A stretch of 64,000 nucleotides of DNA, from the NCBI RefSeq assembly GCF_048403405.1, contig NZ_CP183129.1; one strand, 5' to 3'. Below, in pieces: positions 1 to 6,000 of the stretch (position 1 is its first letter; every line of letters begins with the position of its first letter). A program made the position numbers. The DNA comes from Escherichia coli (lineage in GTDB: Bacteria > Pseudomonadota > Gammaproteobacteria > Enterobacterales > Enterobacteriaceae).

Positions 1-3000
1 CTACAAAATTGTGGGTACTGGTTACCATAGCGTGAATACATATCTGAACAAAATTTTTCAATACAGGAACATTCACACCTTTTTCCCTGACAATGCAGTA
101 GTTGTCGTAAATGTGACGTACCAGAAACTCATCATCCTGTTGTTCGGGATTACGAAGATGTGCTGCTGTTCTTCGCATCATGGAGATGAGCTTTTCAGCC
201 TGAGTGGATAAAATGGTGGCACAGGGGAATGCTGTTACAGGTGTACCTTTACCCGTTAACTCCGTGACAAGGGAATAAATATCTCTGCTTTCCGGATGTT
301 CCAGCAGAGTGCTTTCCATCAACTCCAGCTTAATAAATGGACGAAGACAGGGGACTTGTGCAAATGTCTGGGGATAACGTACCGAGATTTCGTTATAACG
401 ATACTCATCACGTGTTATACGGGCGTTTTCATTATCCAAGCTGAAAATGTCAGAATTATGAATAACATCCGTGATTATTTGCACGATTTCCTTGCGAATT
501 TTTCTTCTCTTGTCTCTGCCATTTTGCATAAAGTTCTCTGTTGGCACGAGCTTTATATCAATATCTTCTGACATTCTGTTTAGCGAGATACCTGCTTTTG
601 ATAATGCGGTACCTCCTGCAAACACGAGAGTATGTGTTTCTGGTTTTATTTCTTTTAATAATCTTAAAAGATCAACCACAAAATAATCTTTTTCGACGAT
701 AGCGACAGATTCAATATCCAGTGCATCGGCAACGTCAGGAAATAATGATGTTAATTCAGGCATTGATTTTACTTTTCCCTACTATTAACACTCTTTTAAA
801 TCGAGAAGGTGTTTTTATCCCCAGAGATACAGGAATTTGTGTGGACTGACCTTTATTGTAGCATTCCGTTGCTCCTGCCAGACGGTATCTGATATTCAGG
901 CGCTCCAGGGCCTCTGTAATTACTGCAGCAGAGCCCCCAGGCGCTGCGGGCATGATTTTCCCAGTGATGATGTTACGACGGGCTTTGGTGTAAACACCAT
1001 AGCCCACTTTCATCAACTTACCTTCGTTTACCAGTGTACGAAGAGCTCTGCCAACCTGATCATAGCCAGCGATATCCCTGAAATCATCCCGGGTGAACAC
1101 ATAACGTTTTGAACGGTTCAGTCGGGACTGAATACGGTCTTTTGTAGTCATGTTTCCTCCGAAAAATTTTCACAATGATAGCAAAAATATGACATGTTTA
1201 ATAGCGGGGCAAGGCCACATTACCTGTCTGCTAATACATTTGGATAGTGCCTGGCAATTATGTCATTTAGCCTGTCAACCAGTTCTGGTTTCCTGAACGT
1301 GATGTGTGCGGAGCCCTTCTTAAAGTATCTGATGCTGAACATTTCGTCTTCATAGCGCTCTTTACCCTGAACGGACTGGATGTGACCATCCAGACGAATA
1401 GTGATGTTTTCCCGGTTGTCGGGAATCGGTTTGTCGCTGAACAGATGTAGCATTCTTTCCAGATCGGCGAGTCGGTCAGTCTGTTGTCCGGTGATAAGAT
1501 GAAATCTCCACCGGTCCCATCTCACCAGATTGTTGATAATGATTTTACTTCCAAATTTACAGGGAGAGTTGGTTTTATAATTCCAGCTCAGTCCCCTGAA
1601 GACGTTGATCACTCCCCGCTCAAACACCTCATCCTTGTTCTGGTGCAGTTGTTTAAATGTGCTCAGAATGTTCGCTTCGCTGATTTCCGGAAAATTATCG
1701 TACTCCAGTGACCGGTACCATGTATCACGGGCCTGCGCATCCATTAAGGAAAGCATCCTGGAACGTTGCATCAGGTCACGCCAGATTTCACGGTCAAGGT
1801 TGCGGGTGATGGCTTTCATTGCCGTTTCAGGTTTCTCCATGAGCCAGCAGCCGCAGCGAAAATCCTGTTTCATGGCCCAGTCCCGGGTGGTTTTACCTCC
1901 AATGCTTTCCGTCAGAACTGAGATTTCAGCCAGTTGCCGGATAAGTGTGTCGATTTGCAGCAGTGTACTTTTTCGTACAGCCAGAATGTGGTGGATACTG
2001 GTTGAGCAGATAACTTCCGTATGCCCGTTGACCACTTCCGGACGGGAGGCTGTGATATCAGACATAATCGATATTTATATGAACGCATCCCGTTTGCAAA
2101 GGCATCCATTGTTCTGACATCGACGGTAGGTTGCAGCTTTATATCCGGCTTTATTGCAGCCCGGAAGCTGCGAGCCCCTATGTAATTCGCCGACTCACGC
2201 CTCATTTCCTCTGCGGGCTTTAGGCCCAATCGATTATCCAGGTTTAGTGAGTCACGGTCTTACCTGTCTTTGTCATCACGCTGGCTGCCAGAGCAACCTT
2301 TCTGCATTCACCCTTTTGTAAAGAGTTTATGTTTATCGGTATCAGCGATTAATCAGGCCTGATACTGACATGATTTTTGTCGTATTTACGTCCGTGAGCG
2401 GCTATTGCCCACACCGTTCGCGCCAGCTTGTTTGCCATTGCGACGATTGCCACGCTGGCCGGACGACGCTTTTTCAGTTCGGTTATCCATGGACCAGGTT
2501 CTTTGGTCAGTAATGCTGCCGCCCTTGCACCATGAATAAACAGGGTTCGCAGATATTTATCACCACGTTTGCTTATTCCCAGCAGGCGGATTTTTCCTCC
2601 TGAGCCTGTCTGTCTGGGCACCAGACCGATAAACGCGGCGAATTCCCGTCCCGACTTAAAGGCGGAGGCGTCTCCCATCGTGGCAACGGCAGCGGTGGCG
2701 ATTAACGGCCCCACGCCTGGGATGTTCAGTAACCGCTGACAGGTTTCATTCTGTCTGGCTATCGCCTGCAACTGCTTCTCAATGTGGTCAAGATGTTCAT
2801 CAAGTTCAGTAATTCGCTGATATTGTTCATCCAGCATGTTTATCAGGTAGAGCGGTAGCCGCTCCTTCAGACGCTCCAGGGCTTCCGGCACCTCCTTCGC
2901 CAAAGCAGCACGCCCCTTGTGCGTCGTTTCACCAAATTCCAGCAAGAGACTGTGAAGCGCGTTTATCTGTGCTGTCCTGAACTTCACCAGTTGCTGGCGC

Positions 3001-6000
3001 ATTCGGTGTAACCCCAGCGTGGCCTGTTGCTCCTCGCTTTTAACGGCGACGGATTTTACCGGCTGCTGAACCGCCAGCCAGATGGCTCGGGCGTCCATCA
3101 CATCGTTTTTATTTCCCATCACGAATGCTTTGACGAACCGGCCTTTGAGTAATCTGACCTTATGTCCCAGTTTCTGAAGCTCACGCGCCCAGTGATGAGA
3201 ACCCCCACAGGCCTCCATGCCGATAAGGCAGGGTTCACGGTTGCTGAAATATTCAAGGAATTTCTCACGCTTAACCTGCTTATCGATAATCTCTACGGTA
3301 TGTTCATCAACGAAATGCACCTGCATAAGATGTTTTGCAATATCAACGCCGACAGGGATATATTTCATGGTGTGGATCCTCCAGTCTGTTGGGAGCGAAA
3401 CGCATCCCGTTGGGCACGATGATGCCGGAAATCTGCGGGGATCCACACTCATCTACTTAATCCCCGAGCGGCTCATTTCATAATGTTGGGATGCGTTCAT
3501 TACATTTCCTTTTTGCAGATAAATGAAAACGCCAGCCCTGTTCAGGCTGGCGTCAGTGGAATAAAGTCTGGTGAGTAAGACTCACCTGTTCTGTTGCAGA
3601 AGCTGCTGTTGGCGCAGGGTACGGATATCTTCCCTGGCCTGTTTAATGCAGGGCAGCAGTGCTGCTGAATCCGTTTTATCCTCATCGTTGTCGAAGATAA
3701 TCCCTGATTCGCAGTCAATATTGTCCTGCAGCCACGCAATCAGAATATCCAGCGCTGTTTCCGTGGTTAATGATTTCATGTTGTGAATTTCCGGGTTACC
3801 AGTCGAAAGTGGGTAAATCCGGCAGGCATTCAGCGCTGGCATCCAGATGAATGAGACTGACGCCATAACGTCGGGTAAGTGTGACAACCAGACGGCGGAA
3901 CGTTTTTGACAGCCCCAGGCGTTTAAGCCGCAGAACCGGGTATGACCACGCATCGGTACGTAACAGATATCCGCTACCTGTAAAATGAATCCATTCTGAT
4001 TCGCCGGTGTCATTCGTCTGATGCGACAGCGAGTACAGCCAGGCGTTGTCTGTTTCCGTGATATGCGCGGTACTACAGCGTATACCGCTCAGGGCAGCAG
4101 AGGGGGGGGTGCTGTCTGTTGAGGTCCGGTCAGATTCATCAACAACACGAAGGGAGTAGCCATTATCGCAGACCACGTTAATCAGTTCGGCAAGCTCAAC
4201 ACCATCGACGTCAACGACAATTCGCCCCATGTTCAGTGCCTGTACGTTAACGCTGTCAGCTTCCAGCGTCAGGGCCAGTTTCATCGTTTTGCCTCCGGAT
4301 GCTTGCCCTGGGTAATGTTATTTACCATTCTGTAATTGTTCCGGGTCATCAGGCCGGTCGCCCTGCGAGCCCGGAGAATATCAATGCTGTTGATTAACTG
4401 CGACGGGGCTCCTGCGCTGAATCCCGGCTGGTCGGTACGTACCAGCGCGTATTTTTCAACGAGAAAGTTCACCGCGTCACACAGTGAAATCCCTGCCTCA
4501 ATATGCTGCTCAATCACACGTTCATCAGCGAACGGTGTGTCATTCAGCGTGAGGCCATAGTGCTGGTCCAGCAGTTGGGTGAGCAGTGTCTGCCAGATGG
4601 TGACGGGAGACGGGCAGCGCGATGCCGCCCGTACGTGTGTGTCGGGTAATGTTTTCATACTGAAGATTTTCCTGATATGCAGATATAAGAAATGGAAAAG
4701 TGGCGTGGAGAAAGCACCAGGCCGGAGCAGAAGACTATTCCGGAGGGTTACTTTCCGTTTCGGTCGCAGGATAAACAGCCAGATAAACGTAACCACAGGA
4801 CCCGAGGGTGTCGGCATCGCAGGTCAGCCCTTTCGCATACAGCGTGACGGTATGCTGATGGCGGGGATTCAGTTCACCGCTGGTGAGCATGAGTTCCAGT
4901 TGTTTCATCAGCAGTGGAAAAGCCTGGTCCAGATGGTATGCATCCGCATTGCTGAACCGGCCCCTGATACCGGCGCGGTCGGCAAGGTAATGCAACCGGT
5001 TACCCTCCTGCACCAGACGGGCGCCAAAACAAGGTGTCACGGCGCAGGGCAGCCCCCACCAGGGGAGGTCTTTGTTGTCGTCGGGAAGCGTTGTTCCGGG
5101 GAGTGTGTCCGACATGATAAAATCCTCACAGAAAATCGGTGAATGATAGTTTAACGATGACGGGTCAGCCGGCGCGCAGACCGGCTTCGGTGAAGGTATA
5201 TTCGTTGATGAGAAGGGCCTCATCCACAGCGGTGTCTGAGGTCAGCCAGTCGTACTTGTTTTCCAGCTGGCGGTACAGCCAGAAGGCCAGGTCGCGCAGG
5301 GCTTCGCTGACAGCGGCTTCCGCATCGGTTGTCATTGCCTGACCAGTCGGACTGTTCCGGGTAACAGTGATATCCATGCTGTACGGATGGCAGTAACGTC
5401 CCCGGTGACTGATTTCAGCCTGAAGCTGCCAGAAGTTACGTTTCTGCACCGCCTGCAGGGTATCAGCAATACGATGAAGCTCACGCTCCTGCGGTGCATG
5501 CTCCCTGATTCTCCGGGCTGTTGCAGACTGCCAGTGCCAGCGTCCTTCAAAACAGGCTCCGTCCCCCTGGCTGCAGAATCCGCTGAACCAGATGCACGGC
5601 TCTTCCATAAACCTGCCATTGCTGAGCCGGAAAACGCGCTGGCGGAGGTCAATCCCGAAAATGCCACAGACCTCCCTGAAGTCTTCATACACGTTTTCAT
5701 ACCAGTTGCTGTCAGCATGATGCTGACGGTACCAGTCGCGGGCTTTTCCCCGTGCCGGGCAGGAAAGTTCATCCAGCGTATACACTGTGATGGTGATAAT
5801 GCTGCTCATCAGAATGCCTTTACTGACTCAGTTCAGAGTGACGCTCATCAGCCGGACATACGGGCCAAAACTGTCCTTACGACGTTCAGCAAACACGGCC
5901 AGCACACCGGGAATATCCTGCACTTCACGACCGGTATACGCTTCAGTGCTGCCGTGCCAGCGGTATTTGCCGGTACAGAACGGGAAAAGACGGGATGTCG

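What the first reader, a model, noticed from the sequence alone, without database searches (positions are those of the whole stretch)
2280..3552. IS110-family insertion sits exactly between the CP4-like module terminator and the upstream cassette
The transposase is flanked on one side by a clean intrinsic terminator (3520..3552) ending the yeeW operon and on the other by the promoter side of the 281-aa gene. IS110-family elements insert site-specifically and can bring an outward promoter, so the insertion may affect expression of the neighbouring cassette.
Basis: inference. Interest (0 to 1): 0.25.

Follow-up and report, generated by a model that had tools for sequence, protein, structure and literature searches.

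The report
RNA-guided insertion sequence at ribosome-binding site
A complete 1.43-kb mobile element of the IS1111/ISEc11 type, carrying its own guide RNA, sits exactly between the ribosome-binding site and the start codon of a gene in an E. coli genomic island. It is an ordinary kind of element, but its guide RNA and those of its relatives are matched to such gene-start signals.

Summary
The transposase and the terminator hairpin are real, but the element's borders were misplaced. An empty site in CFT073 and a second copy at ydeO|ydeN define an insertion of 1432 bp, window 2076..3507 on the minus strand. It has 13-bp subterminal inverted repeats, a 339-aa DEDD transposase 80% identical to that of ISEc11, and a 273-nt non-coding region downstream of tnp. 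Its loops match the target flanks (AUAAUCGAU and AGAGGAA) and the element's own ends (AUUACAU and AUAUAAA). Stems and guides covary with flanks in 12 relatives from Escherichia, Xenorhabdus, Brenneria, Vibrio and one proteobacterial metagenome genome. The element lies between the Shine-Dalgarno AAGGAA and the ATG of the DUF4942 gene, co-oriented with it. The same element sits in the same way before ydhF, fucK, ydeN and other genes, and the relatives sit likewise at most of their sites. No outward promoter is detectable; a TTGCAA-16-TAAAAT promoter forms only when the ends join in a circle. The likely effect is loss of translation of DUF4942, not activation, but this is inferred. Verdict: a new, unnamed member of the ISEc11 group of the IS1111 family. 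Its clade-wide targeting of translation-initiation regions is modestly interesting.

The parts
2076..3507 (-). Complete IS1111-family insertion sequence, 1432 bp when one copy of the AA core is counted as the 7-bp left extension AAATGTA. The IS body is 2076..3505. The left end (LE) is at 3507/3505 and the right end (RE) at 2076.
   Evidence: CFT073 carries the same island without the insert...CGATATTCCTTTTTGCAG.... A 99.6% identical copy between ydeO and ydeN loses homology at the same two points. Twenty-six further copies all measure 1430 bp between the same end sequences.
2074..2075 (-). Core dinucleotide AA (TT on the + strand) at the right junction. The second copy is at 3506..3507.
   Evidence: The empty site has the dinucleotide once and the occupied site has it at both junctions. 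In relatives the core is AA or GA, and it covaries in both guide loops.
2349..3368 (-). tnp, a 339-aa DEDD transposase/recombinase with D9, E52, D89, D92 and the motif GLVPRQTGSG at 248-257. This copy carries a private G25V change (nt 3295).
   Evidence: Pfam and NCBIfam. It is 80% identical to TnpEc11. G25V is seen against all other copies and relatives.
3488..3500 (-). Left subterminal inverted repeat ATGAACGCATCCC, 5 nt from the IS body end (7 nt counting the core).
   Evidence: It is the reverse complement of 2079..2091 and is conserved in relatives.
2079..2091 (-). Right subterminal inverted repeat GGGATGCGTTCAT, followed by the 3-nt extension ATA.
2188..2256 (-). Predicted seekRNA core, or target-binding loop. 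It has a basal stem CGUGACUCAC/GUGAGUCGGCG, an inner CCU/AGG helix and a central hairpin GGGC-CUAAA-GCCC. Two guide segments lie in the internal loops.
   Evidence: MFE fold of the 3' non-coding region, z = -2.8. Consensus folds on 7 relatives. Pair counts on 12 sequences: 92.8% of cells paired, 9 pairs with compensatory changes, slid controls 26-35%.
2229..2237 (-). Right-target guide AUAAUCGAU. It is complementary to the top strand ATCGATTAT, which ends in the AT of the DUF4942 ATG (window 2064..2072).
   Evidence: Exact 9-nt match. The equivalent loop in 12 relatives matches their own right flank: diagonal mean 6.8 nt against 3.4 nt off-diagonal.
2206..2212 (-). Left-target guide AGAGGAA. 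It has the same sense as the left flank plus core: AAAGG+AA here, and AGAGG+AA at ydhF and ydeN.
   Evidence: It covaries with the left flank in relatives: GGGAGA, UAAGGAGA, CACAGGAA, GCUAGGGAA.
2133..2186 (-). Predicted donor-binding part of the long seekRNA/bridge RNA. AUUACAU (2180..2186) is complementary to the LE start ATGTAAT. AUAUAAA (2138..2144) has the same sense as the RE end ATATA plus the core AA. Helices GCAGC/GCUGC and GGC/GCC lie between them.
   Evidence: Covariation in relatives: AUCUCAU with LE ATGAGAT, AUUCCAU with LE ATGGAAT, AUACAGA with RE ..ATACA plus GA.
2094..2099 (-). -35 box TTGCAA of the junction promoter. It is completed by TA|AA|AT only in the circular form.
   Evidence: An in-silico circle junction gives TTGCAA-16-TAAAAT, 9 of 12 matches with A2 and T6. 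The integrated right junction gives nothing of that quality.
3370..3448 (-). 5' UTR structure of tnp. GUGUGGAUCC (3439..3448) pairs with GGAUCCACAC (3370..3379), covering the tnp Shine-Dalgarno GGAGGA up to the AUG.
   Evidence: Fold z = -2.7. Compensatory differences in relatives.
3506..3511 (-). Displaced Shine-Dalgarno AAGGAA of the DUF4942 gene. It now lies 1432 bp upstream of its ATG.
   Evidence: Empty site in CFT073: AAAAAGGAATATCGATTATG.
1220..2065 (-). DUF4942 gene, 281 aa and intact. Its ATG lies 10 nt from the IS right end, and no Shine-Dalgarno remains in front of it.
   Evidence: The protein accession is the same in the occupied (ATCC 25922) and empty (CFT073) islands.
3528..3554 (-). 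Host intrinsic-terminator-like hairpin after the DUF957 gene (3582..3779). It lies outside the IS, and its stem ends 21 nt from the left junction.
   Evidence: It is present unchanged in the empty site.

Best explanation
Window 2076..3507 (minus strand) is a complete, recently inserted IS1111-family element of the ISEc11 group. It is an unnamed relative; its transposase is 80% identical to TnpEc11.

Like ISEc11, it should move as a circle made by its DEDD recombinase, guided by an RNA from the 273-nt region downstream of tnp. One double loop of that RNA reads the target. AGAGGAA has the sense of the left flank plus the AA core. AUAAUCGAU pairs with the right flank up to the AT of a start codon. 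A second pair of segments reads the element's own joined ends: AUAUAAA has the sense of the RE end plus core, and AUUACAU pairs with the LE start.

Because the target guides spell a Shine-Dalgarno sequence and the approach to an ATG, the element lands between the ribosome-binding site and the start codon of a gene, always co-oriented with it. Here that gene is DUF4942 of a CP4-like island next to kps.

Shown: the borders, the empty site, the inverted repeats, the RNA structure with covariation, the guide/flank and guide/end complementarity with covariation in relatives, and the recurrent SD|ATG geometry.

Inferred: that the RNA is made and used as in ISEc11; that the insertion removes efficient translation of DUF4942; and that co-oriented insertion in a 5' leader lets host transcription supply tnp and guide RNA, since the element's own promoter exists only in the circle.
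For: Borders and empty site.

Family features:
- 13-bp subterminal repeats with 7-nt and 3-nt extensions.
- The non-coding region lies downstream of tnp: 273 nt against 137 nt upstream.
- Tnp is 339 aa with DEDD residues and GL-P----SG.
These match the definition in PMC11187229.

RNA:
- Fold z = -2.8.
- Consensus structure with compensatory pairs.
- 92.8% of cells paired, 9 covarying pairs, 0 of 500 shuffles reaching the covariation score, slid controls 26-35%.

Guides:
- A 9-nt and a 7-nt match to the flanks, and two 7-nt matches to the ends.
- In 12 relatives of 56-83% aa identity the same loop positions change together with their own flanks and ends.
- The top-strand-complementary guide lies 5' of the bottom-strand one, as reported for IS1111-type seekRNAs.

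Target:
- Insertion contexts of this IS include DUF4942 in several paralogous islands, ydeN, ydhF, fucK, a gene after speA, an aldolase gene after a SIS-domain gene, and a MaoC hydratase gene.
- All but one context have (A/G)AGGAA on the left and ..TTATG on the right. At most sites the ATG opens a called or annotated gene. K-12 empty sites confirm three of them.

Independent insertions: the IS is 99.2-99.9% identical between copies, while the island flanks are only 94-96% identical.

Promoter: one forms only at the circle junction.
Against: - There are no RNA or transposition data for this element.
- Rfam 15 gives no hit in 1..8000, even at E <= 1.
- The distance from the core to the paired ATTAT varies among targets of the same IS. 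The ATG lies 6-10 nt from the RE end, and this window has the longest spacing. The right junction differs by one A between copies. A rigid guide-target geometry does not predict either.
- ISEc11 itself is reported to target GTGAAAATACTG, which does not look like an SD-ATG site. The rule therefore does not hold across the whole group.
- One relative (L048) has a left flank that does not match its guide. In L045 the downstream ATG opens only 5 codons.
- One pair of copies (L020/L027) sits in a donor-like site instead.
- This copy's G25V at an invariant residue may have inactivated its transposase.
- The effect on DUF4942 expression is untested.
Confidence: 0.85

Rival explanations
1. One reading: the IS brings an outward-facing promoter and so activates or up-regulates the neighbouring DUF4942/AbiE-like cassette.
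For: The right end carries a good -35 box (TTGCAA, 2094..2099), 16-17 nt from AT-rich junction DNA (TAAATA or AAATAT). Promoter formation at joined ends is established for ISEc11. No terminator-like site lies between tnp and the right end on the minus strand, so read-through transcripts could reach DUF4942.
Against: The consensus scan finds no promoter-like site at the integrated right junction. The candidate -10 hexamers match only 3 of 6 positions. Any transcript starting there would begin at or within a few nt of the ATG. The gene's Shine-Dalgarno has been moved 1432 bp away, and the 18 nt now preceding the ATG (TTCATATAAATATCGATT) contain no SD-like purine run. In relatives the junction hexamers differ, for example TAGAAC, so no conserved outward promoter exists.
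Confidence: 0.1
2. The IS was acquired once in an ancestral CP4-like island and spread by vertical descent or island duplication. On this view its position reflects history, not site-specific RNA-guided targeting.
For: Most copies read are in the DUF957|DUF4942 context. Of 30 contigs read, one shown place stood for 23 further similar places. The ST73-type genomes share the identical locus.
Against: The same IS lies at ydeN, ydhF, fucK and other unrelated genes, with the same flank motif and orientation. Island flanks differ by 4-6% while the IS differs by under 1%. Junction details differ between islands. CFT073 has the same island, with the same protein accessions, and an intact site. Guide loops covary with flanks in relatives.
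Confidence: 0.03
3. The SD|ATG pattern is a survivorship or annotation artefact. On this view the guide specifies only a short AT-rich or purine-rich word, and the link with gene starts is incidental.
For: AGGAA followed closely by ATG will tend to be called a gene start by any gene finder. The spacing between the two halves is not fixed. ISEc11's published target is not SD-like. Some relatives' downstream ORFs are short, at 5, 31, 37 and 46 codons.
Against: ydhF, fucK and ydeN are long-established K-12 genes whose annotated starts are exactly the ATGs concerned. In 13 of 13 elements the invariant 5' AU of the right guide faces the AT of an ATG. In 12 of 13 the left guide and flank are GGAG/AGGA/GGGA/GAGA-type. 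Orientation is always the same as that of the downstream gene.
Confidence: 0.1
4. This particular copy is a dead relic. It is structurally complete but unable to move, because of the private G25V change in the RuvC-like domain.
For: G25 is invariant in all other copies, in 11 relatives with an intact transposase down to 56% identity, and in ISEc11. Nt 3295 is the only difference from ATCC 25922 in 7.6 kb.
Against: G25 is not one of the DEDD residues (D9, E52, D89, D92). The ends, repeats and guide region are identical to those of other copies. The copy could be mobilised in trans by another copy.
Confidence: 0.3

Closest known systems
ISEc11 (IS1111 family; Prosseda 2006; Siddiquee et al. 2024, PMC11187229)
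   Same: Both have a 339-aa transposase, 80% identical over the full length. The element lengths are about 1.43-1.44 kb. Both have subterminal inverted repeats with 7/3-nt extensions, a non-coding region downstream of tnp, and a junction promoter formed from an RE -35 and an LE -10. The predicted guide RNA lies 93-161 nt after the stop codon. That position and size are compatible with the 82-nt and 154-nt RNAs that co-purify with TnpEc11.
   Different: At 80% aa identity this is a different IS by the usual naming threshold (my own knowledge of ISfinder practice: under 95% aa). The guide loops and the target differ: ISEc11's reported target is GTGAAAATACTG, whereas here it is (A/G)AGGAA|..CGATTATG. 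No experiments exist for this element.
ISEc66 and other ISEc11-like elements of E. coli plasmids and chromosomes (L028-L033), and the Xenorhabdus relatives (ISXne4-like)
   Same: They share the same RNA scaffold and the same SD|ATG, co-oriented insertion geometry. The differences are concentrated in the guide loops and match each element's own flanks. This is the 'natural reprogramming' described for ISEc11 versus ISXne4.
   Different: Their transposases are 77-83% identical to this one and 87-94% identical to TnpEc11. Most use a GA core instead of AA. Some have a different LE start (ATGAGAT) with a matching donor guide.
IS621 bridge RNA (IS110 group; Durrant et al. 2024, PMC11208160)
   Same: Both use one RNA with a target-binding and a donor-binding part, each holding a left guide (including the core) and a right guide. 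Both share a core dinucleotide between target and donor. Donor-like off-target sites are known for IS621, and one such site is seen here at L020/L027.
   Different: The IS621 RNA is encoded upstream of the recombinase gene, in the LE, with the guide order reversed. IS621 has no long subterminal repeats. Its target is a REP sequence with a CT core.
IS900 and related mycobacterial IS110-family elements
   Same: They are reported to insert between ribosome-binding site and start codon in one orientation. This is recalled from Doran et al. 1997, 'IS900 targets translation initiation signals...'. PMC8141618 confirms only that the IS900 hed ORF lacks its own RBS and start codon. So targeting of a translation-initiation region by a member of this superfamily has a precedent.
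   Different: IS900 belongs to a different branch, classed as IS110 family rather than IS1111. As I recall it, the proposed logic is opposite: host signals drive an ORF on the strand opposite to the transposase. No guide-RNA explanation was available then. I did not test this resemblance with sequences.

Membership tests
IS1111 family (as defined in PMC11187229, after Partridge & Hall) | Subterminal inverted repeats of about 11-13 bp, perfect or nearly so | tested here: met
   There is a 13-bp perfect repeat: ATGAACGCATCCC (3488..3500) and GGGATGCGTTCAT (2079..2091). The definition is quoted.
IS1111 family | Asymmetric terminal extensions beyond the repeats, 7 bp on the left and 3 bp on the right | tested here: met
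   The left extension is AAATGTA, 7 nt when one core copy is assigned to the IS. The right extension is ATA, 3 nt. Borders were fixed by the empty site.
IS1111 family | The longer non-coding region lies downstream of tnp | tested here: met
   There are 273 nt downstream and 137 nt upstream.
IS1111 family | DEDD transposase of about 330-350 aa with a C-terminal GL-P----S(t)G motif | tested here: met
   The protein is 339 aa. Pfam PF01548 and PF02371 match, and NF033542 scores 338.6 bits. D9, E52, D89 and D92 are present, as is GLVPRQTGSG at 248-257. It is 80% identical to TnpEc11.
IS1111 family | A seekRNA from the 3' non-coding region, with the top-strand-complementary segment 5' of the bottom-strand-complementary one | tested here: met
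   This was tested in silico only. AUAAUCGAU (pairs with the top strand) lies 5' of AGAGGAA (top-strand sense). Both are in internal loops of a covariation-supported structure. Relatives covary.
IS1111 family | Orientation-specific insertion at one preferred target, without a true target duplication | tested here: met
   The orientation relative to the flank motif is the same in all 27 copies examined. Only the 2-nt core appears on both sides.
IS1111 family | A circular intermediate with abutted ends that creates a promoter; the RNA co-purifies with the transposase | not testable with these tools
   Only the in-silico junction could be examined: TTGCAA-16-TAAAAT.
ISEc11 (the same IS, as an isoform) | Near-identity of the transposase to TnpEc11 and the same target | tested here: not met
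   It is 80% aa identical. The guide loops and the target differ. It is a distinct IS within the ISEc11 group.
IS110 group proper (IS621/IS110-type bridge RNA elements) | The guide RNA is encoded in the left end upstream of the recombinase gene, with no long subterminal repeats | tested here: not met
   The 137-nt LE holds no guide-length matches to the flanks, only scattered 6-mers. Instead it holds an anti-SD structure. 13-bp subterminal repeats are present.
Rfam-curated RNA family | A match to any Rfam 15 covariance model | tested here: not met
   There are no hits in window 1..8000 at E <= 1.

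The most novel reading that the evidence does not exclude
The ISEc11-like clade, found in Escherichia, Xenorhabdus, Brenneria, Vibrio and an uncultured proteobacterium and reaching down to 56% transposase identity, may be specialised as a whole for translation-initiation regions. The invariant nucleotides of its two target-guide loops (..GGA(G/A)A.. and a 5' AU) read the Shine-Dalgarno sequence and the AT of the start codon. Only the nucleotides between them are 'programmable' and read the spacer. Each insertion is therefore co-oriented inside a transcribed leader. The host promoter then feeds an element that has no promoter of its own until it circularises, and the host gene is cut off from its ribosome-binding site. 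I found no description of this for the IS1111 family in the literature I could search. IS900 is the only precedent I know of, and I know it from memory.
Probability: 0.55. Interest if true: 0.5.

Novelty: new member of a known kind. Interest (0 to 1): 0.35.

Why it matters
**For annotation.** The element is 1432 bp, not the transposase gene alone. The 273 bp that look like an intergenic promoter region are its guide-RNA gene. PGAP labels only the CDS.

**For the island.** DUF4942 in ATCC 25922-type strains is probably translationally silenced compared with CFT073, which has the identical island without the insertion. The two strains form a natural isogenic-like pair for asking what DUF4942 does.

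**More generally.** If the clade-wide rule holds, these elements are natural RNA-guided tools aimed at gene starts. They would be a source of polar, precisely placed knock-downs before operon genes such as fucK and ydhF. The rule would also show how part of a programmable guide can be evolutionarily fixed on a universal sequence feature. It would further explain how an element whose promoter exists only in the circle gets transcribed while integrated.

Tried and rejected
- **Rfam.** A scan of 1..8000 at E <= 1 found nothing.
- **Exact-protein look-up.** The window's own transposase was not on record, because this copy has a private G25V. The two common variants worked.
- **Bridge RNA in the left end (IS110-type).** Rejected: there are only scattered 6-mer matches, and the LE folds into an anti-SD structure instead.
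- **Outward promoter at the right junction.** Not found by the tool's scan or by my own relaxed scan.
- **The 367-aa ORF (start at 3452) as the real gene.** Rejected in favour of the start at 3368, which PGAP and all relatives use.
- **Other copies or good target sites in the window.** There is no other copy. One weak look-alike site lies at 50049.
- **Literature.** I found no paper linking IS1111/ISEc11-type elements to ribosome-binding sites or start codons. The original ISEc11 paper (PMC1483014) is not held, so I could not check the sequence context of its target.
- **The one-A differences at right junctions and the variable core-to-ATG distance.** I compared them with the K-12 empty sites. 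The fucK site shows a mismatched core (AG against AA) resolved differently at the two junctions. The rest remains unexplained.
- **The ISfinder name of this element.** It could not be determined. PGAP gives only a generic family name, whereas a 76%-identical relative is labelled ISEc66.

Full report
**1. What is at the coordinates**

The window matches E. coli ST73-type chromosomes such as ATCC 25922 at 99.9% over 2100..3700. Over window 1..7599 it differs from ATCC 25922 at a single base.

The region is the distal end of a CP4-like island next to the kps locus. On the minus strand the gene order is RadC/JAB, DUF987, YeeU-type antitoxin, CbtA toxin, DUF5983, DUF957 (3582..3779), transposase, DUF4942 (1220..2065), DUF6088/AbiEi-like (756..1151).

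The transposase ORF is real. Pfam finds DEDD_Tnp_IS110 and Transposase_20. NCBIfam NF033542, 'IS110 family RNA-guided transposase', scores 338.6 bits against a cut-off of 140. The 367-aa ORF listed mechanically (2349..3452) is an upstream in-frame extension. The annotated start, conserved in relatives, is 3368, giving 339 aa.

A terminator-like hairpin lies on the minus strand at 3554..3528, followed by TTTTCATTT.

**2. The true borders**

A 99.6% identical copy lies between ydeO and ydeN in strain FHI_NMBU_11. Homology to the window stops at both ends there.

CFT073 carries the same island, with the same protein accessions on both sides, but without the element. Its sequence reads ...CAGACATAATCGATATTCCTTTTTGCAG....

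Comparison gives an insertion of 1432 bp. The IS body is 2076..3505, and a TT dinucleotide (AA in element orientation) is present at both junctions: 2074-2075 and 3506-3507. Twenty-six further copies all measure 1430 bp between the same terminal sequences.

The terminator is host DNA. Its stem ends 21 nt from the left junction.

**3. Which kind of element**

- The ends carry a perfect 13-bp subterminal inverted repeat: ATGAACGCATCCC at 3488..3500 and GGGATGCGTTCAT at 2079..2091.
- The extensions beyond the repeats are 7 nt on the left (AAATGTA, counting the core) and 3 nt on the right (ATA).
- The long non-coding region, 273 nt, is downstream of tnp. The upstream one is 137 nt.
- The protein has D9, E52, D89 and D92, and GLVPRQTGSG at 248-257.
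- It is 80% identical over its whole length to TnpEc11. I took that sequence from the supplementary FASTA of Siddiquee et al. 2024.

These are the defining features of the IS1111 family as set out in that paper. The element is a distinct, apparently unnamed member of the ISEc11 group. PGAP gives it only the generic family name, whereas a relative 76% identical in DNA is labelled ISEc66.

**4. The guide RNA**

For ISEc11, the region downstream of tnp gives an 82-nt seekRNA and a 154-nt longer form. Both bind the transposase and are essential for circle formation and insertion. A segment complementary to the top strand of the target lies 5' of a segment complementary to the bottom strand.

In the window, the 3' region folds better than shuffles, z = -2.8. 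The fold places two single-stranded segments in the internal loops of a stem/three-pair helix/hairpin unit at 2188..2256 (minus):

- AUAAUCGAU (2229..2237) is exactly complementary to the right flank ATCGATTAT.
- AGAGGAA (2206..2212) has the sense of the left flank plus core. The flank plus core reads AAAGG+AA here and AGAGG+AA at ydhF and ydeN.

Immediately 3' lie two more segments:

- AUUACAU (2180..2186) is complementary to the first seven bases of the left end, ATGTAAT.
- AUAUAAA (2138..2144) has the sense of the last five bases of the right end plus the core.

These are the target-binding and donor-binding halves of a bridge RNA in the sense of Durrant et al.. Their order is the one reported for IS1111-type elements.

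**5. Test by relatives**

I collected six E. coli relatives, 75-79% identical in tnp DNA and 87-94% identical to TnpEc11 in protein. One of them (L029) has a frameshifted tnp. I added six more from Xenorhabdus, Brenneria, Vibrio and a metagenome-assembled proteobacterium, 56-81% identical in protein.

The RNA scaffold is conserved with compensatory changes. On 12 sequences, 92.8% of cells are paired and 9 pairs change on both sides. None of 500 shuffles reaches the covariation score. When the partners are slid, only 26-35% of cells pair.

The loop segments differ between elements and follow each element's own flanks. The table gives examples.

| Element | Right guide | Right flank | Left guide |
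|---|---|---|---|
| L028 | AUCUGC | GCAGAT(G) | GGGAGA |
| L029 | AUCUGUUCUA | TAGAACAGAT(G) | GGGAGA |
| L030/L031 | AUAACAG | (C)TGTTAT(G) | UAAGGAGA |
| L033 | AUGCUGC | GCAGCAT(G) | AGGAGA |
| L037 | AUGAUCCCUU | AAGGGATCAT(G) | GAGAAA |
| L032 | AUAAU | ATTAT(G) | CACAGGAA |
| Vibrio (L045) | short and imperfect (4-nt exact match) | GTCAATAT(G) | GCUAGGGAA |

Each left guide equals its own left flank exactly or within one mismatch.

In a guide-by-flank matrix, the longest exact match on the diagonal averages 6.8 nt for the right guide, against 3.4 nt off the diagonal. For the left guide it is 8.4 nt against 5.5 nt.

The donor segments covary in the same way:

- AUCUCAU goes with LE ATGAGAT, and AUUCCAU with LE ATGGAAT.
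- AUACAGA goes with RE ..ATACA plus GA.
- The core is AA or GA, and it changes in both left guides together.

I regard the guide assignment as shown in silico. Its use in vivo is inferred from ISEc11.

**6. Where it lands**

In the empty site the sequence upstream of DUF4942 is AAAAAGGAATATCGATTATG. This is a Shine-Dalgarno AAGGAA, eight bases, then the ATG. The IS sits between them and reads in the same direction as the gene.

This is not peculiar to this island. Two look-ups by exact protein returned the same IS before several other genes:

- DUF4942 in several paralogous islands
- ydeN
- ydhF
- fucK
- a gene after speA
- an aldolase gene after a SIS-domain gene
- a MaoC-type hydratase gene

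In every case but one, the left flank ends in (A/G)AGGAA. The right flank reads 0-2 A, then 2-6 bases, then TTATG. At most sites the ATG is the start of a co-oriented called or annotated gene.

K-12 supplies intact versions of three sites, with the annotated starts at exactly those ATGs: ydhF GAGGAAGCGATTATG, fucK CAGGAGCGATTATG and ydeN GAGGAACATTTATG.

The relatives behave alike. In 12 of 13 elements the left flank is GGAGA, AGGAA, GGGAA or GAGAA. In the twelve relatives an ATG lies 6-8 nt after the right end. In at least 8 of 13 elements, this one included, it opens a long ORF.

The invariant nucleotides of the two target loops (GGA(G/A)A, and a 5' AU facing the AT of the ATG) therefore correspond to the universal parts of a translation-initiation region. 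The variable nucleotides correspond to the spacer.

**7. Independent insertions, recent**

The IS copies are 99.2-99.9% identical. The island flanks are only 94-96% identical between paralogous islands, and the junction details differ. The near-identical island of CFT073 is empty.

Intact joined flanks are found in 3685 of 5426 complete E. coli genomes. A tnp at least 99% identical occurs in only 68 records. The occupied state is therefore the rare, derived one.

**8. How it probably works, and its consequence here**

- **Shown.** Only when the right and left ends are abutted does a good sigma-70 promoter appear: TTGCAA-16-TAAAAT, with TA from the RE, AA from the core and AT from the LE. Neither integrated junction gives a promoter-like site.
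- **Shown.** The tnp leader can pair GUGUGGAUCC (3439..3448) with GGAUCCACAC (3370..3379). This covers the tnp Shine-Dalgarno. There are compensatory changes in relatives.
- **Inferred.** While integrated, the element depends on transcription entering from the host leader in which it sits. Translation of tnp is held down by the leader structure. After excision the junction promoter drives tnp and the guide RNA, as proposed for ISEc11.
- **Inferred.** DUF4942 keeps its ATG, but it is now preceded by TTCATATAAATATCGATT, which has no SD-like run. Its translation should drop sharply whatever the transcription.

**9. Loose ends**

- The number of A residues at the right junction differs by one between some copies at the same site. 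The distance from the core to the paired ATTAT varies among targets of this one IS; the window has the longest spacing, with its ATG 10 nt from the RE end. The fucK site appears to have had an AG core. The left junction now carries the donor's AA and the right junction carries the target's AG. A run of four A at the donor junction may allow slippage, but I could not resolve this.
- Two copies (L020/L027) lie in a site whose flanks mimic the element's own circle junction, CATATAAA|ATGTAATGAA. This is a donor-like pseudo-target of the kind noted for IS621.
- ISEc11's published target (GTGAAAATACTG) is not SD-like, so the rule is not absolute in the group.
- This copy's transposase has a private G25V at a residue invariant everywhere else. 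Whether it can still move by itself is open.

**10. Comparison and novelty**

The element works like ISEc11 and meets every sequence-testable criterion of the IS1111 family. It is not ISEc11 itself, since it is 80% identical and has a different target. It is not an IS110-group element of the IS621 type. Rfam has no model that detects its RNA.

An insertion sequence in a CP4-like island is ordinary, and RNA-guided targeting by this family has been known since 2024.

What I did not find described is that this whole clade aims at Shine-Dalgarno/ATG junctions in the gene's own orientation. The nearest precedent is IS900 of Mycobacterium avium subsp. paratuberculosis. I recall it as reported to target translation-initiation signals. 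The one paper I could read confirms only that its hed ORF lacks its own RBS and start codon.

I rate the finding as a new member of a known kind. Interest is modest, and would be somewhat higher if the clade-wide rule is confirmed by a census and by experiment.

Noticed in passing
L020 and L027, IS at 1364..2793 (flanks 1334..1363 and 2794..2833): The same IS is inserted between a TraG_N gene and a DNA-methylase gene. The flanks there read CACATATAAA|IS|AAATGTAATGAAATATC (L020; AAATATAATG... in L027). The uninterrupted site would therefore resemble the element's own circle junction (RE end + AA + LE start), not the SD/ATG target. This looks like a donor-like pseudo-target.
   Followed up: partly
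window 3295 (codon 25 of tnp): This copy has a private A, where every other copy has C. The change gives G25V at a residue invariant in all other copies, in the relatives with an intact transposase, and in ISEc11. It is the only difference from ATCC 25922 in the first 7.6 kb of the window.
   Followed up: partly
window 3370..3448, minus strand: A conserved, covarying stem in the tnp leader (GUGUGGAUCC / GGAUCCACAC) covers the transposase Shine-Dalgarno up to the AUG. It is probably a brake on translation from read-through transcripts.
   Followed up: partly
right junctions of L003, L004, L018, L024, L002, L012 and L016, compared with window 2066..2076: There is one A fewer at the right junction in some copies at the same target. 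A mismatched core (AG in K-12 fucK against AA in the IS) was resolved differently at the two junctions. The distance from the core to the ATG varies (the ATG lies 6-10 nt from the RE end) among targets of one IS.
   Followed up: partly
window 756..1151 and upstream of window start (L001 1143..2664; L007 1..1490): Downstream of DUF4942 lies a DUF6088/AbiEi-like antitoxin gene. In the reference annotations it is followed by a frameshifted AbiEii/AbiGii nucleotidyltransferase toxin gene, and then by a 183-bp fragment of another IS110-family transposase just beyond the window start. All three are present in both the occupied (ATCC 25922) and empty (CFT073) islands.
   Followed up: no
window 3505..3497, minus strand (first bases of the left end): The left end begins ATG TAA, with an overlapping ATG (ATGTAATGAAC...). 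After insertion the host Shine-Dalgarno sits 1-2 nt in front of it. All relatives also start their left end with ATG (ATGAGATGA, ATGGAATGG, ATGATATGA). Whether this start-stop arrangement has a function is unknown.
   Followed up: no
window 50049..50061, plus strand: This is the only other sequence in the 64-kb window that loosely resembles the target motif (GGGAAATATTATG). It is unoccupied.
   Followed up: no
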